Below, in pieces: positions 21,026 to 52,912 of a DNA stretch of 64,000 nucleotides. Source of the stretch: an uncultured Actinomycetota bacterium (GTDB lineage Bacteria; Actinomycetota; Acidimicrobiia; Spongiisociales; UBA4744); the NCBI GenBank assembly GCA_963718995.1, contig CAVRAP010000008.1:1236-65235 (forward strand), read 5' to 3'. Below the pieces are notes generated by a model. It was not told the origin of the DNA, searched no databases, and saw nothing but the letters and a program-made list of their open reading frames with translations. Positions within the stretch are counted from its first letter, which is position 1. Each line of letters opens with the position of its first letter. The position numbers were made by a program, and so were the translations under genes.

Positions 21026-21099
21026 CGGGCCAGTGTAGGGAGATTCTCTTGCCGGTCGGCAGGCGGCTAATCTTTGGACTGTCCGGTTGAGCCGGACAC

Positions 21100-21230
21100 C
21101 GTGAAGGTCCCATCAGTGGCTAAGAGCGAAGTCCGGTGCAAATCCGGCGCTGTCCCGCAACTGTGATGCCCTCTCTGGAGGGATGAGCCAGGTCGCCTGC
21201 CGTCACGGTCACGAAAGTGCTCTCGTAGGA
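21100..21230 (+). promoter_or_regulatory. cobalamin (B12) riboswitch in the leader of the btuFCD-like operon
   Basis: GGTGCAAATCCGGCGCTGTCCCGCAACTGTGA core plus B12 box GAGCCAGGTCGCCTGCC; SD GGAGGA of the downstream gene 5 nt before the GTG at 21286. Confidence 0.7.
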
Positions 21231-21285: not shown

Positions 21286-22155
21286 GTGAAACGTCCGATG
21301 GGTTGCCTTCTGGCATTGGGTCTCCTGCTCGCCGCATGTGCGTCTCCCATCACGGTCGATAGTGATGGCGGCCGGGTGACACTTGACGATAACCCCGGGC
21401 GGATTGTCTCTCTATCGGCAACGCATACGGAGATGCTCTATGCGATCGATGCCGCCGAGTTGATCGTTGCCACAGACCTCACCTCGAATTACCCGGCCGC
21501 GGCCCAAACGACCACCAAGGTGGACGCCTTCAATTTCAACGTCGAAGAGATCGCGGCCGTCGAACCCGATCTTGTCGTGACCGGATTCAACTTCCAGGGA
21601 GAACTCGAAGCGCTCGAGGCGATCGGGATTCCGGTTCTGCTGCTCGCCCCGGCGGCGAACCTGGAGGAGGCCTACGAGCAAATCGAGATACTGGGTTCAG
21701 TCACGGGCAGGGAGCGGGAAGCTGCCGGCTTGATCTCGTCCATGCAGGCCAGGATCGACGCCCTGACCGGGTCGACTCCGGGGGGGTCGCTGACGGTGTA
21801 TCACGAAGTCGATAACACCCTCTTCTCCGCTAGTTCAGCGACGTTCCTCGGGGACATCTACCGCCGGCTCGGAATGTCGAATATCGCCGACGCGGTCCCC
21901 GACGAATTCGGATCCGGGTATGTGCAGTTGTCGGAGGAGTACCTTTTCTCCGAAGATCCGGACCTGATCTTCCTCGGCGATGCTGGGTTCGGGGAGAGTT
22001 TGGAATCGGTCACCGCTCGCCCCGGTTGGGGCTCTCTCACTGCGGTCCAGAACGGTGCCGTGTTTGAACTGGACGGCGATATCGCAGGACGGTGGGGCCC
22101 GCGGACCGTTGATCTCGTCGAGGAGATCGTTGCGGCGATCAAGGCTGCTCCCTAG
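21286..22155 (+). CDS. ABC transporter substrate-binding lipoprotein, cobalamin/iron-siderophore (BtuF/FecB) family
   Basis: Lipoprotein signal with lipobox LLAAC; periplasmic binding protein type III fold; downstream of the B12 riboswitch. Confidence 0.85.
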   Translation: MKRPMGCLLALGLLLAACASPITVDSDGGRVTLDDNPGRIVSLSATHTEMLYAIDAAELIVATDLTSNYPAAAQTTTKVDAFNFNVEEIAAVEPDLVVTGFNFQGELEALEAIGIPVLLLAPAANLEEAYEQIEILGSVTGREREAAGLISSMQARIDALTGSTPGGSLTVYHEVDNTLFSASSATFLGDIYRRLGMSNIADAVPDEFGSGYVQLSEEYLFSEDPDLIFLGDAGFGESLESVTARPGWGSLTAVQNGAVFELDGDIAGRWGPRTVDLVEEIVAAIKAAP

Positions 22156-23186
22156 TGGCTACCCCGGCCGCAGTTCCGTCGAGCCGTCGGAAGCGCGCCT
22201 ATGTCCTGGCTGTCTTGTCTCTCGTGGCGATGGCCATCCTGGGAGTCACGATTGGTCCTGTGCGAATCGGAGCCGGCGCTGCCCTTATGGAAATCGCCGA
22301 CCGGGTGTTGCCACTGAACATCGATTCTGGTCTCAGCGATCAGGAGGCAGCGATCGTGTGGCAACTGCGCGCTCCTCGCGTTGTTTTGGGGAGCCTCGTC
22401 GGGGCGATGCTGGCGATTGCCGGGGGCGCTTACCAGGGAGTGTTCCGGAACCCGCTGGCGGATCCCTACCTGCTCGGTGTCGCCGCCGGAGCAGGTTTGG
22501 GAGCAACGGCCGCTCTAGCTTTCGGAGCAGGCGCCGTCGCCCTGCCGCCGGCGGCCTTTCTGGGTGCGGTCCTGGCCGTGGGGGCTACCTACTTCTTCGC
22601 CCGTGCGGCAGGCGGCCGCCGGACGGCCGCAACACTGATCCTGGCGGGAGTTGCTGTTGGGTCATTCCTGACGGCTATCCAGACCTTCGTGCAACAACAA
22701 TCGTCCGACCGGATCAGAGAGGTCTTCACCTGGCTCCTGGGCCGTCTCAGCGCCGCCACCTGGTCGCAGGTCCGTACGGTGCTGCCCTATGTGGTTGTTG
22801 CCCTGGTTGTCCTGCTCGCCTACCGCAGGGTCCTCGACGTTCTCTCGGTTGGCGAAGAGGAGGCAGCGACTCTCGGTGTACGTCCGGCCAAAGCCCGTCT
22901 GGTGATTATCGGAGCCGCCACCCTTGGTTCGGCAGCCGTTGTTTCCGTCACAGGGCTGATCGGATTTGTCGGGATCGTGGTTCCGCACGCCGTGCGGTTG
23001 GTGGCCGGGGTGAGTTACCGGGTGATCCTGCCCCTCTCGATGGTTATCGGAGCGGGGTTCTTGCTGGCTGCGGACCTCCTGGCCCGTACGGTGATCTCTC
23101 CCGGCGAGTTGCCAATCGGCGTGGTGACGGCCTTCGTGGGAGCACCGTTCTTTGCCATCATTCTGCGACGGCGGGAGCCTGTCTGA
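22155..23186 (+). CDS. ABC transporter permease, FecCD/BtuC family
   Basis: About 10 TM helices with the FecCD signature; overlapping stop/start with neighbours. Confidence 0.85.
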   Translation: MATPAAVPSSRRKRAYVLAVLSLVAMAILGVTIGPVRIGAGAALMEIADRVLPLNIDSGLSDQEAAIVWQLRAPRVVLGSLVGAMLAIAGGAYQGVFRNPLADPYLLGVAAGAGLGATAALAFGAGAVALPPAAFLGAVLAVGATYFFARAAGGRRTAATLILAGVAVGSFLTAIQTFVQQQSSDRIREVFTWLLGRLSAATWSQVRTVLPYVVVALVVLLAYRRVLDVLSVGEEEAATLGVRPAKARLVIIGAATLGSAAVVSVTGLIGFVGIVVPHAVRLVAGVSYRVILPLSMVIGAGFLLAADLLARTVISPGELPIGVVTAFVGAPFFAIILRRREPV

Positions 23187-23995
23187 TGTCTCGCCTCGAG
23201 TGCTTCGGGTTGCGGGCCGGGTACGGCCAGAAGGAGGTGCTGCACGGGGTCGACCTCGATGTCGCAGAGGGCGAGTTTGTGGTGGTTATCGGGCCGAACG
23301 GATCCGGGAAATCGACGTTGCTGCGAGTGGTGGCCGGAACGTTGCCCGCAACCGCCGGCGAAGTGCGGGTCGCCGGTGGCCCGGGTGAGGGAGCCGGCGG
23401 GAAGCGCCGATCTCGTCAGATAGCCATGGTTCCGCAGAACCCCGTGATTCCAGATGGCATGACCGTGCTGGATTACGTTCTGCTGGGTCGGACCCCATAC
23501 ATCCCCTTCTGGGGGACGGAATCCGGCAGCGATCTGCGGGTCGCCGGGCGAGTCCTTGCGGAGCTCGATCTTGGACCCATGACGGATCGGGTGCTGCAGT
23601 CGCTCAGCGGAGGTGAGTTGCAGCGGGTGATTTTAGCCCGGGCCCTTGCTCAGGAAGCCCCGGTCTTGTTGCTCGACGAGCCGACCACGGCCCTGGACAT
23701 TGGCCATCAGCAGCAGGTCCTCGAACTGGTCGACCAGTTGCGTGCGACCCGGTCAATCGCAGTCCTGGCTGCCATGCATGACCTCACCCTGGCCGCCCAG
23801 TACGCCGATCGTCTGGTGTTGCTCGTTGATGGACGCACCGCGGCTGCGGGGCCGGCAGAAGTGGTGCTCACCTCCGCCCTGCTCCGCCAGCATTACAGCG
23901 CCGAGGTGAACATCTTGAGAAGTCCGGATGGGAGCGTTGTGGTTGCGCCGAAACGAAAGACCGAATCAGCCCCGATCAGAGGTCGAACCCCCTAA
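23186..23995 (+). CDS. ABC transporter ATP-binding protein (BtuD/FecE-like)
   Basis: Walker A GPNGSGKST, signature LSGGELQRV, Walker B LLLDEPT; only the C-terminal 270 aa of the 671-aa track ORF is real. Confidence 0.85.
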   Translation: MSRLECFGLRAGYGQKEVLHGVDLDVAEGEFVVVIGPNGSGKSTLLRVVAGTLPATAGEVRVAGGPGEGAGGKRRSRQIAMVPQNPVIPDGMTVLDYVLLGRTPYIPFWGTESGSDLRVAGRVLAELDLGPMTDRVLQSLSGGELQRVILARALAQEAPVLLLDEPTTALDIGHQQQVLELVDQLRATRSIAVLAAMHDLTLAAQYADRLVLLVDGRTAAAGPAEVVLTSALLRQHYSAEVNILRSPDGSVVVAPKRKTESAPIRGRTP

Positions 23996-41267: not shown

Positions 41268-41409
41268 GGACCACACCGCTCCGGCAGGCTCGGACAACCC
41301 AGGTTTCCGAAACACGAGAACACGTACGGCTCATCAAAGGTGAGCGCATGTACGACCGTGCACCTGCCGTCGAATGCCACCACCCGGCGCTTTCCGAGTC
41401 GCCGGCTCC

Positions 41410-41510
41410 AGCCAGGCACTCCTGCAACACCCGGGACCGAGCGCTTAGGGCTGCTTCCTTCCGGACCTGACCCATTTCACGAAGTCCCGCCGCGCAGGAC
41501 CCGGCCTTCA
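41410..41510 (-). ncRNA. ffs: signal recognition particle RNA (4.5S / ffs), small bacterial type
   Basis: Minus-strand sequence has the invariant domain IV motif GGUCAGGUCCGGAAGGAAGCAGCC flanked by complementary arms (CCUGCGCGG...GCAGG; GGGAC...GUCCC); lies in an otherwise non-coding 380-bp gap. Confidence 0.6.
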
Positions 41511-41663
41511 ACGCTGCGTGCTCGGTGCTGACCCGAATGGCGGACACCCTCGGGCAGGGATTCGGCCCCGCTTGTAGAGGTTTTCGGGTACAGGGCACCC
41601 CTAGCGCCCCGCCTAGCACGATCGGAGAGAAGGGTACTACGTGCCTTGAAGTCATCGGTCGTT

Positions 41664-41788: not shown

Positions 41789-41882
41789 TGGCGGAGGGAG
41801 AGGGATTCGAACCCTCGAGGGCGGGTAAACGCCCTACGGCATTTCGAGTGCCGCGCACTAGGCCGGACTATGCGATCCCTCC
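41789..41882 (-). tRNA. tRNA-Ser (anticodon CGA), type II, CCA encoded
   Basis: GGAGGGATCGCATAGTCCGGCCTAGTGCGCGGCACTCGAAATGCCG...GGTTCGAATCCCTCTCCCTCCGCCA. Confidence 0.9.
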
Positions 41883-41967
41883 GGTGGCGAGGATTGTACC
41901 GTGGGTTCGCCTGGCCTAAGAAGCCGACGGCGTGACACAATGGCCGTAACCAGGTGAGGAGCAGCAA

Positions 41968-43179
41968 ATGGGTGGCGAGATTCGTTCCGAAGTGGGGCCG
42001 TTGCAGTCGGTCATCGTTCATCGTCCTGATCTGGAACTGCACCGTTTGACTCCGGGCAACAAGGATGAGTTGCTCTTCGATGAGCTGGTATGGGTCGAAA
42101 AAGCTCGCGAAGAGCACGATGTCTTCAGCGCAACGATTGCTCGGGCGGGGGCCGAGGTCCTCTATTTGTCGAAGCTCCTCGAAGATGTTCTGACCGACGC
42201 GGAGTTGGCGCTCGAATTTGTCGAAACTCATGTCAGTGAAGATCTGTGCGGGCGGCGTCTCGCTAATCGGGTTCGGCGCTTCCTGATCGAGTTACCCGTC
42301 CCGGAATTGGTACGCCACCTCATTGGGGGAGTAACCCTCGAGGAGGTGGGGGAGGCGCAGGGCTTGGTAGCCGCGCTCCACGGTCCCGACGATTTCATCC
42401 TGACCCCTCTCCCGAATGCGGTTTTCATGAGGGATTCGTCGGTTTGGGTGGGTGACGGCGTCATTCTGAGCCCCATGAACCGGCCGGTTCGTCAGAGGGA
42501 GACGGATCTCCTTCGCCTGGTCTATGGCCTGCATCCGTTGTTCGCAGGCACTCCCATCTGGTTCGGCGATCAGCCGGGCGAGCATTACCCCGCGTCTGTG
42601 GAGGGTGGCGACATCCTGGTGGTGGGCGAGCGGGGGCTCGCCATTGGGATCTCGGAGCGAACGACTCCATCGGGAGCGGCCGCGCTGGCAGCCCGTTTGT
42701 TCGATCAGAATGTGGTCGATCGGATTCTGGCGGTTGAGTTGCCGAAAGCCCGCAGCACCATGCACCTCGACACCGTGGTGACCATGGTCGACATCGACTC
42801 CGTTGTGCTCTATCCCAGGATCAGGCAGCAGGTGCGGTCGTTGGAGGTCACCCCCGGCGCCGAGGGGCATTTGAACGTATCGGAAGCACCCGATCTCCTA
42901 GCCGGGTTGAGGTGGGCGACGGGTCGCGGCGAGATTCACTCCATCGAGCCGCCGCTGCAGAGCGTTCAAGCCGAACGCGAGCAATGGAACGACGCCAATA
43001 ACACCTTTGCCCTGGCGCCGGGAGAGGTGGTTGCGTACGAGCGAAATGTGGCTACCAATGAAGTTCTCGAAGACGCGGGCATCACGGTGCATCGGATCCC
43101 GTCCTACGAGTTATCACGAGGCCGGGGAGGCCCCCGCTGCATGACCTGTCCGGTACGGAGGGAACCGCTGCCGCTTTAG
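41968..43179 (+). CDS. arcA: arginine deiminase
   Basis: ADI signature N-terminus (EVGPLQSVIVHRPDLEL...) and catalytic Cys (GGPRCMTCP) near the C-terminus. Confidence 0.9.
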   Translation: MGGEIRSEVGPLQSVIVHRPDLELHRLTPGNKDELLFDELVWVEKAREEHDVFSATIARAGAEVLYLSKLLEDVLTDAELALEFVETHVSEDLCGRRLANRVRRFLIELPVPELVRHLIGGVTLEEVGEAQGLVAALHGPDDFILTPLPNAVFMRDSSVWVGDGVILSPMNRPVRQRETDLLRLVYGLHPLFAGTPIWFGDQPGEHYPASVEGGDILVVGERGLAIGISERTTPSGAAALAARLFDQNVVDRILAVELPKARSTMHLDTVVTMVDIDSVVLYPRIRQQVRSLEVTPGAEGHLNVSEAPDLLAGLRWATGRGEIHSIEPPLQSVQAEREQWNDANNTFALAPGEVVAYERNVATNEVLEDAGITVHRIPSYELSRGRGGPRCMTCPVRREPLPL

Positions 43180-43637
43180 GCTCTGCGCGTTTCGAAGAAC
43201 TCCTGCAACTGGTGGGCGCATTCGCTTTCGAGGAGCCCGCCCACCAGATCGATGTGGTGGTTGAGCCTCCGGTCTTGCGGGATGTTGTACAGGCTCCAGG
43301 CGGCACCGGCTTTCAGGTCCGGGGCACCAAACACGATCCGTTCGAGACGCGCCAAGACGGCCGCCCCGGCACACATGGCGCACGGTTCGAGGGTGACGAC
43401 CAGGGTATGCCCGGTCATCCTCCAGTCGTCGCGGTTCCGGGCGGCTGCCGAGAGGACCAATATTTCCGCATGAGCGGTCGGGTCCTGCAGCTGTTCCCGA
43501 CGATTGTGATCGGAGGCAACGACGGTGCCTTGCGGATCGAGCAAGACGGCGCCGACCGGCACGTCACCGTGTTCGGTGGCCCGGCCGGCCTCTGTCAGGG
43601 CAGCTCGCATCGCGGTTTCGAGTTGGGCTTGGTCCAT
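43176..43637 (-). CDS. tadA: tRNA-specific adenosine deaminase TadA
   Basis: CDA-fold zinc ligands HAE and PCAMCAGA; 153 aa. Confidence 0.85.
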   Translation of the reverse strand: MDQAQLETAMRAALTEAGRATEHGDVPVGAVLLDPQGTVVASDHNRREQLQDPTAHAEILVLSAAARNRDDWRMTGHTLVVTLEPCAMCAGAAVLARLERIVFGAPDLKAGAAWSLYNIPQDRRLNHHIDLVGGLLESECAHQLQEFFETRRA

Positions 43638-43661
43638 GTCGCTTTACACTATGTCGCTGTT

Positions 43662-43752
43662 GGAGGGATCGCATAGTCTGGCCTAGTGCGCACGCCTGGA
43701 AAGCGTGTAGGGGGTTCACGCTCCCTCGAGGGTTCAAATCCCTCTCCCTCCG
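43662..43752 (+). tRNA. tRNA-Ser (anticodon GGA), type II
   Basis: GGAGGGATCGCATAGTCTGGCCTAGTGCGCACGCCTGGAAAGCGTG...GGTTCAAATCCCTCTCCCTCCG. Confidence 0.9.
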
Positions 43753-43858
43753 CGACGGGTCGGCCGTTGGCCGGCCCGAGTGCGCAGAGCGGCTAAGCCG
43801 ATCTGCTGTCAGTTGTCAGTCCGCTCGGGGCCGAGTGCCCCTCGCTTCAGTCGTCAGA

Positions 43859-43882
43859 CTGATAACTGATAACTGATAACTG
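43859..43882. repeat. heptamer tandem array (CTGATAA)x3 between tRNA-Ser(GGA) and tRNA-Ser(TGA)
   Basis: Three perfect 7-nt units, preceded by hairpins (GGCCG-ttgg-CCGGCC, GGGGCCgagtGCCCC); paralog of the element at 41664. Confidence 0.6.
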
Positions 43883-43903
43883 CGGTGGCGTGGCCACCGT
43901 TAT

Positions 43904-43992
43904 GGAGGGATGACCGAGCGGACGAAGGTGGCAGTCTTGAAAACTGCTGTGGGGTTCACGCCCTACCGTGGGTTCGAATCCCACTCCCTCCG
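43904..43992 (+). tRNA. tRNA-Ser (anticodon TGA), type II
   Basis: GGAGGGATGACCGAGCGGACGAAGGTGGCAGTCTTGAAAACTGC...GGTTCGAATCCCACTCCCTCCG. Confidence 0.9.
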
Positions 43993-44538
43993 CCGACCGC
44001 CTAGCTTCACGTAGCCGGATCCGAAGCGAAACGAGCACAACATCCGCTCGCACGGGATGGGGACTTCGGCGTTCGTTACCTGGGCTACTCGGGTCGCCGG
44101 GCTGGGGTACTGGGGATTGCCGGTCCTGGGAGGTGTTCAGTTGACTCGCGGCTCATCACCATCGGCCTGTTGGGCATTGCCGGTGTCGCCCTGGGCGGCC
44201 TCACCGCGGCCGTGCTGGGTGTTGTGGTGTGTCTGGTCGTTGTGACGGCCCTCAGCGTTGAGACGGTCCCACATCGGGATGCTCTCCGCCAGCTTCGGTG
44301 AGGGCGCTGCAAGACTGACGACGCACGATGACTAGAGCCAAAGGGGGCACCAAGGTTCTGTGAATCTGGGGTGTGACGGCGGCACCAAATACCTTCCCGG
44401 CGATAGCTACCACTGATCAGTGCCGACAAAGCGGATAGGTCACACCGGCGACCGGACCGTGATCAACTACCGTCTCTGTCGAGTGCTTTGAGAATTTCAG
44501 CACAGATTTGGGCAGACCGCCCGAGAGGAGATCCAGCC

Positions 44539-45348
44539 ATGCCGCTCTTTATGGACCGTCACGACACGCCGGGGGCGACGGCGGCGGAGATTGCGCAGGC
44601 CCACGCCAGTGATATCGAAGTGTCGGCGAAACATGACGTCCAATTCATGTCGTATTGGTTCGATGAGGAAAACGGTGGTGTGTATTGCTTCGCTAGGGCT
44701 CCCGGCAAAGAGAACCTGACCGCCGTCCATCGAGAATCGCACGGAATGCTGCCCAACGAGATAATCAGCGTTTCAGAAGATGACGTCTTTCGATTCCTCG
44801 GAGGGATTCATGACCCCGTGGACGATTCGGAACTCAAAAGCCCCTTCCGAACCGTTCTGTTCACCGATCTGGAAGGCTCGACGTCGCTCCTCCAGGAGGT
44901 CGGAGAAGCCGCATTCATGGTCTTGCTCACTGAACACGATCTGATCATTCGTCGTGCGCTAGTGGCTTCTCGGGGACGTGAGGTGAAGCACACCGGGGAC
45001 GGGATTATGGCCTCGTTCGAGGATGTGGGAGATGCCTTGACATGCTCCGTCGCCATTCAGGAAGGTTTTGAGGCGAGGGGGAACCAAGGAGGGACTCCGG
45101 AACTTCGAGTCCGTATCGGGCTGGCTGCGGGCGAGCCGGTCAGGCACAACGATGACATCTTTGGTTCGTCCGTGAACCTGGCGAGTCGGATCTGCGACGC
45201 TGCTAGTACCGGCGGCATTCTTGTGTCCGCTGTTGTCCACGACCTCGGGGTGGAGCAGGGGTTCTCCTTCGCAGTACCCGAAGAGCGAGTCCTGAAGGGC
45301 TTTGCCGGCCCCACCCAGGTCTTCGAGTTGGTGCCGAACCGGGGCTGA
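44539..45348 (+). CDS. class III adenylate/guanylate cyclase domain protein with an N-terminal DUF4242-like domain
   Basis: C-terminal cyclase motifs (RTVLFTDLEGSTSL, HTGDGIMASF, GLAAGEPV, GSSVNLASRI); N-terminal ~100 aa MPLFMDRHD... DUF4242-like; SD GAGAGGAG. Confidence 0.75.
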   Translation: MPLFMDRHDTPGATAAEIAQAHASDIEVSAKHDVQFMSYWFDEENGGVYCFARAPGKENLTAVHRESHGMLPNEIISVSEDDVFRFLGGIHDPVDDSELKSPFRTVLFTDLEGSTSLLQEVGEAAFMVLLTEHDLIIRRALVASRGREVKHTGDGIMASFEDVGDALTCSVAIQEGFEARGNQGGTPELRVRIGLAAGEPVRHNDDIFGSSVNLASRICDAASTGGILVSAVVHDLGVEQGFSFAVPEERVLKGFAGPTQVFELVPNRG

Positions 45349-45537
45349 GTATCGAGCATGTAGCCGATCGACACGCAGATGGGGTGTTCGTTGGCCATGT
45401 CACTGGGACAGGGGTATTGACCAGCGGTCTCATTGCTTGATCCAGGTTGACCTTGGCGGCCCGGCGGGCTGCCGGCATGCATGTCTGCCGGGCTGCGACA
45501 ATCGGGTGCAAGAAGAACCTCGGGGACCGCAACAACT

Positions 45538-46290
45538 ATGAAACGTCGACGAGCGAAGGCCTTGGAGGCTCCGTTTTCTGATTCGTGGCGCGCCCTGCTG
45601 GGCGAGAGGTTGACTTGGTGGCCGGCTCTCGACGCTACGGATCGCCTCAACATGGAGGATCTGATTCGTACCTTCCTGGCCGAGAAGCTTTTCGAAGGCA
45701 CCCGCGGATTTGAACCGACGGAAGACATGAAAGTCCTGGTCGCCGCCCAGGCATGTCTCCTGATCCTGGGTCTTGATTACGGCCTCTATCGCGACGTGAC
45801 TTCCGTGATCATTTCGCCAACGATTGTGCATCAGGCCGGGCCGCGCCATCTCGACGGCGGGATCGTCAGCGGCGACCCTACCGCTCTGGCGGGTCAGGCC
45901 ATGCTCCACGGCCCCGTCCTCATCGTCTGGGATCAGCTGTCCCGCCAATTTCGCCACCCCGGTCGAGGTCATAACGTGGTCTTTCACGAGTTTGCCCACA
46001 AGCTCGACATGCGAAATGGGGCCAGCGATGGGGTGCCACCTATGTCGGCAGAGCTGAAACGCCGCTGGGAACCGGCGCTGCGCTCGACCCTGCAACGGCT
46101 GCGGGACGGCGCACAGGTCGAGCTCGATGCGTATGCGGGCACGAATCCGGCCGAGTTGCTGGCAGTCGCCACCGAAGCATTCTTCGACACCCCCTCCCGC
46201 CTGTCGCAGGAGGAACCCGAGCTGTACGACCTGCTCAAGGCTTTCTACCGCCAGGATCCCGCCTCACGACGGGGAGACGACCGGTCCTGA
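45538..46290 (+). CDS. MtfA-family (M90) zinc-dependent peptidase
   Basis: HEFAH zinc-binding motif and MtfA-like core; internal ATG at 45538. Confidence 0.7.
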   Translation: MKRRRAKALEAPFSDSWRALLGERLTWWPALDATDRLNMEDLIRTFLAEKLFEGTRGFEPTEDMKVLVAAQACLLILGLDYGLYRDVTSVIISPTIVHQAGPRHLDGGIVSGDPTALAGQAMLHGPVLIVWDQLSRQFRHPGRGHNVVFHEFAHKLDMRNGASDGVPPMSAELKRRWEPALRSTLQRLRDGAQVELDAYAGTNPAELLAVATEAFFDTPSRLSQEEPELYDLLKAFYRQDPASRRGDDRS

Positions 46291-46520
46291 AGGCTTCGGG
46301 CGGGTCGGTCTACAACGGGAGCGAGGGCGGCCGGGCTGATCATGATGGTGAGCCGTCCCGGTTCGTGGATCACCCGTCAACCAGAGGTCAGTCCGGTCGT
46401 CGCGTCACGCTCCCGTTCTCTCTGTATGACGGAGTGCTGCCGGTTAGCCGGGGTCGAGGGTTGGAGCTTGGAGCGAGGAACTTGTAACTTGGTCAGGCCA
46501 CCGGTGAAAACCGGTGACCT

Positions 46521-46613
<93 letters not shown>

Positions 46614-47196: not shown

Positions 47197-48950
47197 TCAT
47201 CCCTGGCCGGCAACCCATTCATCGACCAGCCATTCGAGAGTCGACATGGTGACCGGGCCGGAGGTGAGGACGGTGTCGTGGAACCCTTTGATGTCGAATC
47301 GGTCCCCGAGGGCCGTGCGAGCCTTTTCGCGTAGGCGGAAGATCTCCCGCTGCCCGAGTCGGTAGGCGAGAGCCTGGCCGGGCCAGCCAACGTACCGGTC
47401 GACCTCCACTTCCGCTTCCGATCGGGCCACTGCGGTGTTCTCGACCAGGAAGTCGACCGCCTGATCGCGACCCCAGCCTTTGGCGTGCATCCCGGTGTCC
47501 ACAACCAGACGCCCGGCCCGCCACGAGTCGGCGGACAGCATGCCGAGTCGCTGCAGGTCGCTCGAGTACAAACCCATCTCGTCGGCCAGCCGCTCGGCGT
47601 ACAAACCCCAGCCCTCCATGAAGGAGGTGGCGCCCATGTACCGTTGGAAGGTGGGGATCTCCTCGAGTTCTCCTGCAATCGCCAGTTGGAGGTGGTGGCC
47701 CGGGATGGCCTCGTGGTATCCGATCGCCTCAGCCTGGAACTTCATCCGTTCGTGAGGGTCAACCAGATTCACGAAGTAGGTGCCGGGGCGTGATCCGTCC
47801 GGGGCCGGCGGCATGTAGTGCGCGGCCGGCAGATCCTTGGCCATGAACTCCGGGATGGCCGCAATCAGGCAGTCGGCTTGAGGGAGTACGCCGAACCAGT
47901 CCCCGATCGCTGCCTTGGCACGAGTCAGGATATTGCGGGCGGATTCCATGATTTCGTCGGCGGACGCGAAGCGGAGATCGAGGTCATCGCGAAGATGATC
48001 GAAGATCGCCGGCACCGAGCGGGTGCCGAAGACCTTTTCCCCAATCTCGGAGTATTCGGCTGCCAACCTGACCTCGATGTCGTCCATTCCGATCTCATGG
48101 ATCTCGTCGGGGGTCAGCTCGAGACCGGTGTGCTGGGTGACCGCGGAAGCGTAGATTTCGTCGCCGCCCTCGACCCAGGTGAGTCCGCACCGATCATCCG
48201 GTCGTGCCACAGGTAGCAATTCGCTCTCAAAGGCGTCGCGGTAACGCTGAAAGGCCGGACGGAGGGTGCCGGCGACGATGGCGCCCAGCTCGTTCCGCCA
48301 GGCCGTTTCGCCGTCCCATTCCTGCGGTCCGCCGACCGTGGCAAACATGTCCGCGTCCGGAGGGGACGCAAGGTAGCCGTCCAGCATGCTGAGGCTACGG
48401 ACGACCGTGATCCGGGCGGGTGGTCGCCCTTTCCGTATCGCTGTGCGAAAGCGATCGAACGCCTGGTCCAGGGATGCCGGAATGGCCCGGAGACGCTCGA
48501 GATAGGCCCCGGCGTGCTCAGGCTCGGGGAACATCCACTGTGATACGACATGCATCAGCGAAGCGTGGGGTGAAACCAGCTGATCGCTCTGCATCTCGGC
48601 GATCTCACTGTCAATCGCGGCTACGTTCTTCCGGCACTCTCCGATCATCACTTCCCGAGTGACTTGCTCCGCATGACTGAGGGTGGTGGGATCGATGGCT
48701 GCGGCCCGGTTGGCGAAATCGCTGAGCTGCTCGCGCTGAATCCCTTCCTGCTCCTCGGAGTAGTCCTCGATCAGGTGGTCGAACCGGTGATCTCCGAGCA
48801 TCGTTGCCGAAGACGGTGAGTTCTCCAGACCGAAATTCCACAACTCGGTGGCGAGGCGGTCGAGTTCAGGATGCATCAGGTTCTCCCCGGGGTCGCGACG
48901 GGCGAAGTCTGGCACAGTCGCAGGCAGGTCGTTCTCCCAAGACCGCCGGA

Positions 48951-48954
<4 letters not shown>
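47197..48954 (-). CDS. DUF885-family protein (putative metallopeptidase-like), co-transcribed downstream of metH
   Basis: 585-aa ORF with the DUF885 core including the AIPGHHLQ motif; 4-nt overlap with the metH stop. Confidence 0.8.
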
Positions 48955-52412
<3,458 letters not shown>

Positions 52413-52530
52413 GCCGCTCCTTCGGATAGATCGAAGAGGAGCGAAAGCGCCACCTCATCGATCAGGCCTTGGCACCGTGATCCCGGGGATCGGTTGCCGC
52501 GGTTTCGTCGGGCCTGTCCCTCCACCGCTC
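52413..52530 (-). promoter_or_regulatory. SAM-I (S-box) riboswitch in the metH leader, with an SD-sequestering expression platform
   Basis: Minus strand: CUCAUCUUGAGCGGUGGAGGGACAGGCCCGACGAAACCGCGGCAACC...ACGGUGCCAAGGCCUGAUCGAUGAGG matches S-box P1-P4 conserved positions; downstream GCUCCU...GGAGCG hairpin occludes the SD before the ATG at 52412. Confidence 0.7.
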
Positions 52531-52640
52531 AAGATGAGTTCGCAGAAGCATACCCTCGGTCGATCGATGGTCAACATGCGGGGTTTTCGTTTACTCCGGG
52601 GTCGACTACCTTTAGCGAGCAAACCCCTCGTGGGGATTGT

Positions 52641-52715
52641 GCGCCCGTAGCTCAATTTGGATAGAGCGTCTGACTACGGATCAGGAGGTTGGGGGTTCGA
52701 GTCCCTCCGGGCGTG
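52641..52715 (+). tRNA. tRNA-Arg (anticodon ACG)
   Basis: GCGCCCGTAGCTCAATTTGGATAGAGCGTCTGACTACGGATCAGGAGGTTGGGGGTTCGAGTCCCTCCGGGCGTG; anticodon loop CTACGGA. Confidence 0.9.
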
Positions 52716-52912
52716 CGCCGTTCGCTGCGCTCACGAACCGAGTTCGGCTTCGCCGAACATCGCCTTGCGTGGGCTTTGCGTTGTCAATCTCCGATGGCGC
52801 TGCGGGGTTTCGGTCATCTCCCGCCGAGTTCCAGGCTGCCTGGCCGGCGACCCGGGCAGGTGGCTGGTCATCTCGCACAGGACGTACCCATCCCCGGTCC
52901 TACACTCCTGTG

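What the first reader, a model, noticed from the sequence alone, without database searches (positions are those of the whole stretch)
52413..52530. SAM-I riboswitch with an SD-occluding platform controls a metH-DUF885 operon
The minus-strand leader of metH matches the S-box consensus (GGUGGAGGGAcaGGCCCGAcGAAaCCgcGGCAACC ... ACGGUGCCAAGGCCUG, with P1 closing CUCAU/AUGAG). It is followed by a GCUCCU...GGAGCG helix that sequesters the SD 6 nt before the ATG. That is the translational-control architecture typical of actinobacterial SAM riboswitches. The 585-aa DUF885 gene overlaps the metH stop by 4 nt, so it is co-regulated by SAM. This links this uncharacterised family to methionine/SAM metabolism.
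Basis: partly seen in the sequence, partly recalled or inferred. Interest (0 to 1): 0.5.

Follow-up and report, generated by a model that had tools for sequence, protein, structure and literature searches.

The report
SAM riboswitch controlling methionine synthase translation
This is an ordinary SAM-sensing RNA switch in front of the methionine synthase gene of an uncultured actinobacterium; it lacks one of the usual four stems (a known natural variant), and the claimed tie to the neighbouring unknown-function gene does not hold up.

Summary
The riboswitch is real. Rfam RF00162 (SAM-I) matches window 52540..52452 (-) at 77.2 bits against a gathering score of 44.4 (E 2e-16). It lies directly upstream of a bona fide metH (TIGR02082, 1265 bits). 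It is not a four-way junction. P4 is deleted, while P1, the P2 K-turn, the CAGG/CCUG pseudoknot and P3 are kept. The same P4-less form precedes metH in 12 related Acidimicrobiia genomes. It is a published natural variant of Actinomycetota SAM-I aptamers (PMC12714719).

The platform is a translational OFF switch. A Shine-Dalgarno (SD) sequestor hairpin (-13.0 kcal/mol) competes with an equally stable anti-sequestor (-13.1 kcal/mol) that uses the 3' strand of P1. No terminator is present. A conserved TTGACC-16-TATGCT promoter places the transcript start just before P1.

The DUF885 claim fails. Its conserved start is ATG 48876 with its own SD, 74 nt after the metH stop, so there is no 4-nt overlap. 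Synteny exists only in the four closest relatives: the gene is internally deleted in one, split over two reading frames with a body only 47% identical in another, and absent in L002. None of 80 metagenomic DUF885 loci carries metH or a SAM aptamer. More distant riboswitch loci carry an MTHFR-like gene after metH instead. Low interest.

The parts
52547..52574 (-). Sigma-70-type promoter-like site: -35 TTGACC (52574..52569), 16-nt spacer, -10 TATGCT (52552..52547). The predicted transcript start is about 52541, 2-3 nt before P1.
   Evidence: 9 of 12 matches; one site found in 5.8 kb, which is what chance gives.: -35 is invariant and -10 is TA(T/A/G)GCT in six relatives, while the spacer sequence varies at fixed length.
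52452..52540 (-). SAM-I (S-box) aptamer of the P4-less subtype. P1 is 52538..52533 with 52459..52454. P2 carries a K-turn. P3 is GAUCC-CCG-GGAUC. The junction reads GGUGCCAAGGCCUGAUC.
   Evidence: RF00162 at 77.2 bits, gathering score 44.4. Own model R1 gives 104.6 bits. 97.1% of pair cells are standard pairs in 13 homologues.
52513..52516 (-). P2-loop strand (CAGG) of the SAM-I pseudoknot. Its partner is CCUG at 52466..52463 in J3/4.
   Evidence: All four pairs are invariant and paired in 13 of 13 sequences (helix 4). No covariation.
52460..52468 (-). Site where P4 would be. Only GGCCUGAUC remains, with one possible G-C pair. The junction is therefore three-way.
   Evidence: cmscan alignment deletes 17 model positions. 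The same junction is seen in all 13 homologues.
52430..52462 (-). Anti-sequestor hairpin (ON state). AUCGAUGAGG, which contains the P1 3' strand, pairs with CCUCUUCGAU. An inner GGCG/CGCU stem is enclosed.
   Evidence: Appears in the MFE fold. Energy -13.1 kcal/mol. 91.6% paired in six relatives against 37-63% for slid controls, with four wobble-compatible single-sided changes.
52415..52443 (-). SD-sequestor hairpin (OFF state). CGCUCC..UUCG pairs with CGAA..GGAGCG. The SD GGAG is at 52420..52417.
   Evidence: Energy -13.0 kcal/mol. With P1 forced, the SD is unpaired only 0.00-0.17 in six of six relatives. The core CGCUCC/GGAGCG is conserved, 80% paired overall.
48951..52412 (-). metH, cobalamin-dependent methionine synthase, 1153 aa.
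   Evidence: Five Pfam domains. TIGR02082 at 1265.3 bits against a cutoff of 1010.85. 65-90% identical to 80 Acidimicrobiia MetH sequences.
48877..48950 (-). 74-nt metH-DUF885 spacer. It holds the conserved non-coding block TGTGCCAGACUUCGCC (48916..48901) and the DUF885 SD GGAG (48886..48883).
   Evidence: A weak conserved hairpin is predicted. No terminator-like site.
47197..48876 (-). DUF885 family protein, 559 aa from the conserved ATG. No signal peptide is evident by eye in the N-terminus; no predictor was run. It has HEAIPGHH rather than a strict HExxH motif.
   Evidence: PF05960 at 519.8 bits. PDB 3o0y at E 2e-70, structural-genomics entries only. Start established. Motif.

Best explanation
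This is a SAM-I riboswitch of the naturally P4-less Actinomycetota subtype. It represses translation of metH when SAM is abundant.

Transcription starts a few nucleotides before P1, from a conserved TTGACC-16-TATGCT promoter.

When SAM is bound, P1 (CUCAUC/GAUGAG) closes. The anti-SD segment CGCUCCUCUUCG is then free to pair with CGAAGGAGCG and buries the SD 4 nt upstream of the ATG. This is the OFF state.

Without SAM, the 3' strand of P1 with its flank (AUCGAUGAGG) pairs with CCUCUUCGAU instead. This anti-sequestor is transcribed before the SD and holds the anti-SD, so the SD stays open. This is the ON state.

Shown here: family membership, the conserved pairing potential of both helices, their equal stability and mutual exclusivity, and the absence of a terminator.

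Inferred: SAM binding, the direction of regulation, and the kinetic order of folding.

DUF885 is a separately initiated downstream gene. At most, the switch affects it indirectly.
For: - RF00162 matches at 77.2 bits, gathering score 44.4.
- The same aptamer precedes metH in 12 related genomes at 69-77 bits.
- P1, P2a, P2b and the pseudoknot are 100% paired in 13 sequences.
- The anti-sequestor is -13.1 kcal/mol and the sequestor -13.0 kcal/mol, and they share the CGCUCCUCUUCGAU segment.
- With P1 enforced, the SD is unpaired 0.00-0.17 in six of six relatives. With the P1 5' strand blocked it is unpaired 0.61-0.80 in four of six.
- Pairing is conserved at 91.6% and 80% against slid controls of 37-63%.
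- There is no terminator-like site in the leader.
- The promoter hexamers are conserved with a variable spacer.
- P4-less natural SAM-I aptamers in Actinomycetota are documented, and aptamers without P4 function with lower affinity (PMC12714719).
- Translation attenuation dominates outside Firmicutes (PMC2258182).
Against: - In the equilibrium model of the window itself (and of L002), the SD stays paired even when the P1 5' strand is blocked (unpaired 0.09 and 0.07). The ON state therefore relies on co-transcriptional folding order, which was not tested.
- Neither platform helix shows compensatory changes, because the six close relatives are about 90% identical there. The distal UUCG/CGAA part of the sequestor is specific to the window.
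- The whole-leader MFE is no better than shuffles (z -0.12).
- Loss of P4 is reported to lower SAM affinity.
- No binding data exist for this RNA.
Confidence: 0.85

Rival explanations
1. The switch controls the whole metH-DUF885 transcript. Blocked metH translation would expose the mRNA to Rho-dependent termination or decay. DUF885 would then be SAM-repressed and functionally tied to methionine or SAM metabolism.
For: - Both genes are on the same strand, 74 nt apart, with no terminator-like site between them.
- The pair is flanked by opposite-strand tRNA genes.
- The adjacency is present in L001, L003, L004 and L005.
Against: - DUF885 has its own SD and a conserved non-coding block in the spacer, which suggests separate control.
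- It is absent downstream of metH in L002 (87% MetH identity, riboswitch kept), in L006, and in the 74 more distant loci.
- It is internally deleted in L003, and in L005 the gene body is only 47% identical.
- 0 of 80 metagenomic DUF885 loci have metH, and 39 of them have at least 1.5 kb of upstream sequence. None has a SAM aptamer; the best score is 19.7 bits.
- More distant riboswitch loci carry an MTHFR-like gene in that position instead.
Confidence: 0.12
2. The RNA belongs to SAM-IV or SAM-I/IV rather than SAM-I. The hairpin after P1 would be the relocated peripheral helix of those families, not merely an expression platform.
For: - There is no P4 in the junction, and a hairpin lies 3' of P1, as in SAM-IV and SAM-I/IV.
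- One lower-scoring match from the same clan was suppressed by cmscan.
Against: - RF00162 is the best-scoring clan member.
- P2 keeps the SAM-I internal loop (GGAG...GACGAAAC), which SAM-I/IV variants lack (PMC2864571). In SAM-IV the corresponding turn has four nucleotides rather than six and a different backbone path (PMC6890682).
- The P3 loop is only 3 nt, so the PK-2 pairing that defines the SAM-IV and SAM-I/IV periphery cannot form.
- The hairpin contains the SD and competes with an anti-sequestor, which is typical platform behaviour.
Confidence: 0.03
3. The P4-less aptamer is a decayed remnant that no longer binds SAM, and the leader hairpins are constitutive.
For: - P4 is missing.
- The equilibrium model predicts the SD paired in both states for the window.
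Against: - The aptamer is nearly invariant across genomes whose MetH proteins are only 67-90% identical to the window's. P1, P2, the pseudoknot and all consensus core positions are intact. This indicates purifying selection.
- Natural and designed P4-less SAM-I aptamers respond to SAM (PMC12714719).
Confidence: 0.04

Closest known systems
SAM-I (S-box) riboswitch, Rfam RF00162, in the Actinomycetota subgroup with a very short or absent P4
   Same: - Full-length covariance-model match.
- P1, P2 with K-turn, the P2-loop/J3-4 pseudoknot, P3 and the conserved core nucleotides are present.
- It sits upstream of a methionine-biosynthesis gene.
- OFF logic.
- The missing P4 matches the natural subgroup described in PMC12714719.
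   Different: Nothing categorical. The host is an uncultured Acidimicrobiia lineage, and the platform is translational rather than the terminator/antiterminator of Firmicutes S-boxes.
SAM-IV riboswitch (RF00634)
   Same: - Actinobacterial host.
- Same SAM-binding core motifs (GGCAACC...GGUGCC).
- No P4 in the junction.
- A hairpin lies 3' of P1.
- Presumed translational control.
   Different: - Here the SAM-I type P2 K-turn loop is kept.
- The P3 loop is 3 nt, so PK-2 cannot form.
- The 3' hairpin carries the SD and alternates with an anti-sequestor.
SAM-I/IV variant (RF01725)
   Same: SAM-I-like core, with the junction P4 missing.
   Different: SAM-I/IV lacks the internal loop in P2 (PMC2864571) and has the PK-2 subdomain. 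This RNA has the loop and lacks PK-2.
DUF885 (PF05960; PDB 3o0y, 3iuk, 3u24), assigned by Pfam to the Peptidase_MA clan
   Same: Full-length domain match at 519.8 bits. E 2e-70 to 3o0y.
   Different: - No signal peptide or lipobox is evident by eye in the N-terminus (no predictor was run), whereas 3o0y and 3u24 were deposited as lipoproteins.
- The motif is HEAIPGHH, not a strict HExxH.
- No function is known.

Membership tests
SAM-I riboswitch (RF00162) | Covariance-model score at or above the curated gathering score | tested here: met
   77.2 bits against 44.4, E 2.1e-16, model positions 1-108.
SAM-I riboswitch (RF00162) | P1 switching helix with conserved A-U/U-A pairs next to the junction | tested here: met
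   CUCAUC/GAUGAG. Six pairs, 100% paired in 13 homologues.
SAM-I riboswitch (RF00162) | P2 with a K-turn internal loop (GA-rich) separating P2a and P2b | tested here: met
   GCGGU-GGA-GGG...CCC-GACGAA-ACCGC aligns to the consensus loop columns. One P2a pair covaries, U-A to C-G.
SAM-I riboswitch (RF00162) | Pseudoknot between the P2 loop and J3/4 | tested here: met
   CAGG (52516..52513) with CCUG (52466..52463). Invariant and paired in 13 of 13 sequences. No covariation is available.
SAM-I riboswitch (RF00162) | Four-way junction with a P4 helix | tested here: not met
   All of P4 is deleted, 17 model positions. The same holds in all 13 homologues. This is a documented natural variation within RF00162 in Actinomycetota (PMC12714719), so it does not exclude membership.
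SAM-I riboswitch (RF00162) | Selective binding of SAM | not testable with these tools
   Needs in-line probing, ITC or SHAPE with and without SAM.
SAM-IV riboswitch (RF00634) | P5 hairpin 3' of P1, plus a PK-2 pseudoknot between the P3 loop and the 3' tail | tested here: not met
   The P3 loop is 3 nt (CCG) and the loops in relatives are short, so no complementary tail is possible. The feature definition comes from PMC6890682.
SAM-I/IV variant (RF01725) | P2 without an internal loop | tested here: not met
   The internal loop is present. The definition comes from PMC2864571.
Translational (SD-sequestering) expression platform | SD inside a helix that is mutually exclusive with a helix using the P1 3' strand, and no intrinsic terminator | tested here: met
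   Regulation itself was not tested.
MetH, cobalamin-dependent methionine synthase (TIGR02082) | Equivalog HMM above its cutoff and the five-domain architecture | tested here: met
   1265.3 bits against 1010.85. S-methyl_trans, Pterin_bind, B12-binding_2, B12-binding and Met_synt_B12 are all present.
metH-DUF885 operon as a conserved functional unit | Adjacency conserved across lineages, with coupled or overlapping cistrons | tested here: not met
   - 4 of 80 metH loci have DUF885 downstream, all among the five with the highest MetH identity (80-90%).
- 0 of 80 DUF885 loci have metH nearby.
- The spacer is 74 nt in the window, not an overlap.

The most novel reading that the evidence does not exclude
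In this P4-less lineage, the SD-sequestor hairpin that follows P1 by 9-10 nt might stack on P1 in place of the missing P4. The expression platform would then be part of the ligand-stabilised fold. That would be a SAM-I architecture halfway towards SAM-IV and SAM-I/IV, where a helix 3' of P1 supports the core. The constant linker length in six relatives is compatible with this idea, but nothing here tests it.
Probability: 0.08. Interest if true: 0.4.

Novelty: new member of a known kind. Interest (0 to 1): 0.15.

Why it matters
The practical value is in annotation. The window gains a SAM-responsive metH leader in an uncultured Acidimicrobiia genome. The work also shows that the P4-less SAM-I form is fixed in a set of Acidimicrobiia metH leaders. 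In addition, it removes a tempting but unsupported functional hint for DUF885, because guilt by association with the riboswitch does not survive comparative analysis. The window also carries a cobalamin riboswitch on a B12-type ABC importer. Together these give a coherent but unsurprising picture of B12-dependent methionine synthesis under SAM feedback.

Tried and rejected
1. I tried to see the suppressed same-clan Rfam match by rescanning a 221-nt slice at E<=10. The tool still hides it, so SAM-IV and SAM-I/IV were excluded by features rather than by score.

2. I looked for compensatory covariation in the two platform helices and in the aptamer. The sequences are too similar. Only wobble-compatible changes and one U-A to C-G change in P2a were found, so support rests on conserved pairing and slid controls.

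3. Equilibrium two-state modelling gives a clean switch in four of six close relatives. It does not for the window or L002. In the six loci with a different platform the model is uninformative: in five of them the SD pairing is essentially the same in both states, and in L006 it changes only from 0.01 to 0.25. I did not force a conclusion from it.

4. The whole-leader MFE z-score is -0.12, which is uninformative.

5. I considered that the 26-codon N-terminal extension of DUF885 might be real, because tblastn alignments reach residues 10-22. I rejected this. L004 has an in-frame TAA before its ATG, and L001's ORF also starts at the conserved ATG. The conservation is at the nucleotide level in a non-coding block.

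6. I considered whether the spacer block is an ECF-type promoter (GGAAC/T-N15-17-GTG by eye). This is unverified and not claimed.

7. Weinberg 2008 (PMC2327355) is not held, and no full text of Trausch 2014 was found. Feature definitions were taken from PMC6890682 and PMC2864571.

Full report
**What is in the sequence**

On the minus strand, Rfam's SAM-I model RF00162 matches window 52540..52452. The score is 77.2 bits against a gathering score of 44.4, with E 2.1e-16, and the match covers the full model. A rescan of a 221-nt slice gives the same result.

The alignment shows these features:
- P1 is CUCAUC (52538..52533) paired with GAUGAG (52459..52454).
- P2 carries the K-turn loop.
- The conserved strings GGCAACC and GGUGCCAA flank P3.
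- The pseudoknot partners are CAGG (52516..52513) and CCUG (52466..52463).

The alignment also deletes 17 consecutive model positions, which is the whole of P4.

**The genes**

The ORF 52412..48951 is a complete cobalamin-dependent methionine synthase. It has all five Pfam domains and scores 1265 bits on TIGR02082 against a cutoff of 1011. The next ORF is a full-length DUF885 protein (PF05960, 519.8 bits).

**Relatives**

A scan of species-representative genomes with MetH returned 80 loci. Nearly all are labelled Acidimicrobiia or unclassified Actinomycetota; three records carry other labels. Identities range from 65 to 90%.

I built a covariance model from 11 leaders. It finds the aptamer upstream of metH in the window and in 12 loci at 80-108 bits: L001-L007, L013, L040, L047, L048 and L054. 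Nothing comparable appears in the other 68 loci.

Rfam confirms RF00162 at 69-76 bits in the seven of these loci that were tested. It finds no riboswitch in front of metH in six riboswitch-less loci.

All 13 aptamers share the P4-less junction CCAA-N-GCCUG-(A/C)-N-CGAUGAG. Across them, 97.1% of pair cells are standard pairs. P1, P2a, P2b and the pseudoknot are each 100% paired. One P2a pair changes from U-A to C-G. The rest is too conserved to covary.

**Is the missing P4 new?**

No. A 2025 study of RF00162 reports that [quoted passage not shown]. It also reports that SAM aptamers function without P4, with affinity falling as P4 shortens, and that designed P4-less aptamers respond to SAM (PMC12714719).

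The RNA is not SAM-IV. That family has a P5 hairpin and a PK-2 pseudoknot with the P3 loop, and its P2 turn differs from the SAM-I K-turn in length and backbone path (PMC6890682). Here the P3 loop is 3 nt and the K-turn loop is kept.

It is not the SAM-I/IV variant either, because that variant lacks the internal loop of P2 (PMC2864571).

**Expression platform**

Two hairpins downstream of the aptamer are mutually exclusive.

- *Anti-sequestor (52462..52430).* It pairs AUCGAUGAGG, which contains the 3' strand of P1, with CCUCUUCGAU.
- *Sequestor (52443..52415).* It pairs CGCUCC..UUCG with CGAA..GGAGCG and buries the SD GGAG (52420..52417). The SD ends 4 nt before the ATG.

Their computed energies are -13.1 and -13.0 kcal/mol.

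With P1 enforced, the SD is unpaired with probability 0.00-0.17 in six of six close relatives. With the P1 5' strand blocked, that probability is 0.61-0.80 in four of them. It is only 0.09 in the window and 0.07 in L002. The ON state in the window therefore depends on folding order, because the anti-sequestor is transcribed first. That is inference.

Pairing potential is conserved. The anti-sequestor is 91.6% paired against 37-63% for slid controls, with four wobble-compatible single-sided changes. The sequestor is 80% paired against 37-55% for slid controls. Neither shows compensatory double changes.

No terminator-like site lies in the leader, so control is translational. This is the usual arrangement outside Firmicutes (PMC2258182).

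A promoter-like site TTGACC-16-TATGCT lies at 52574..52547. The -35 hexamer is invariant and the -10 hexamer reads TA(T/A/G)GCT in six relatives, while the spacer sequence varies. This places the transcript start 2-3 nt before P1.

**DUF885**

The 4-nt overlap comes from taking the longest ORF. The relatives point to a different start:
- DUF885 begins at a conserved ATG (MHPELD...), which is ATG 48876 in the window. GGAG lies 6 nt upstream of it.
- L004 has an in-frame TAA four codons before its ATG.
- L001's ORF also starts at the conserved ATG.

This leaves a 74-nt spacer in the window. The spacer has no terminator-like site. It does contain a block, TGTGCCAGACUUCGCC (48916..48901), that is better conserved than its surroundings.

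Synteny is narrow. DUF885 follows metH only in L001, L003, L004 and L005.
- In L003, residues 183-524 are missing.
- In L005, the gene body is only 47% identical.
- In L002, the gene is absent although the riboswitch is kept.

Searching from the DUF885 side gives the same answer. None of 80 metagenomic homologue loci holds metH, and 39 of them have at least 1.5 kb of upstream sequence. None has a SAM aptamer; the best score is 19.7 bits, against at least 80 bits for true hits.

In the more distant riboswitch-bearing loci L007, L040, L047, L048 and L054, metH is followed within 6-18 nt by a divergent MTHFR-like ORF. The support is weak: PF02219 at E 8e-4 to 3e-3, and the MTHFR part of NF006396 at E 5.8e-10. 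This ORF is found only in riboswitch loci.

The riboswitch therefore travels with metH, not with DUF885.

A translational switch acts directly only on the first cistron. Any effect on DUF885 would need polarity or mRNA decay, and that was not tested.

DUF885 itself remains uncharacterised. Its only solved relatives are structural-genomics entries. Pfam places the family in the Peptidase_MA clan (PMC12572635). This protein has HEAIPGHH rather than a strict HExxH motif.

**Verdict**

This is a correctly spotted, ordinary SAM-I riboswitch of a known P4-less actinobacterial subtype. It most likely represses metH translation by SD sequestration. The proposed functional link to DUF885 is not supported.

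Noticed in passing
window 21088..21218 (+) and ORFs 21286..23995 (+): A cobalamin riboswitch (RF00174, 57.7 bits) lies upstream of a btuFCD-like ABC importer with Peripla_BP_2, FecCD and ABC_tran domains. This fits an organism that imports B12 for MetH.
   Followed up: partly
L007:7486-8277, L040 about 7471 onward, L047:4394-5203, L048 about 6733 onward, L054:3860-4663 (all +): A divergent MTHFR-like ORF of about 265 aa starts 6-18 nt after metH. The hits are sub-threshold for PF02219, and NF006396 gives E 5.8e-10. It occurs only in SAM-riboswitch-bearing Acidimicrobiia loci. In L006 it lies 2.6 kb away. It is absent from the window.
   Followed up: partly
window 48901..48916 (-); also L001:7498, L004:6547, L005:6882: The non-coding block TGTGCCAGACTTCGCC in the metH-DUF885 spacer is more conserved than its flanks, and it is identical in L005 where the DUF885 body is only 47% identical. 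RNAalifold draws a weak hairpin around it in which two pairs change on both sides. Its function is unknown; it could be a promoter, an operator or a 5'-UTR element.
   Followed up: partly
L007, L013, L040, L047, L048, L054, 30-60 nt after P1: The more distant riboswitch leaders have a longer platform than the window. It encloses a conserved hairpin of the form GCGCUC-(GNRA-like loop)-GAGCGC inside the SD-containing stem. The equilibrium model shows no SAM-state dependence there.
   Followed up: partly
window 52599..52614: The invariant 16-nt block TAAAGGTAGTCGACCC (minus-strand reading) lies between the metH promoter and the divergent tRNA-Arg(ACG) gene at 52641..52716. On the plus strand it contains TACCTT, so it may be the -10 of the tRNA promoter.
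   Followed up: no
window 41789..46612: Four tRNA-Ser genes with four different anticodons (CGA, GGA, UGA, GCU) lie within 5 kb, next to a bacterial large SRP RNA (41356..41621, 169.9 bits).
   Followed up: no
L003:5065-5720 and L005:6881-8687: The DUF885 copy next to metH is internally deleted in L003 (residues 183-524 missing). In L005 it is split over two reading frames, with an N-terminal stub 63% identical and a body 47% identical. This could be gene decay, gene replacement or assembly indels.
   Followed up: partly
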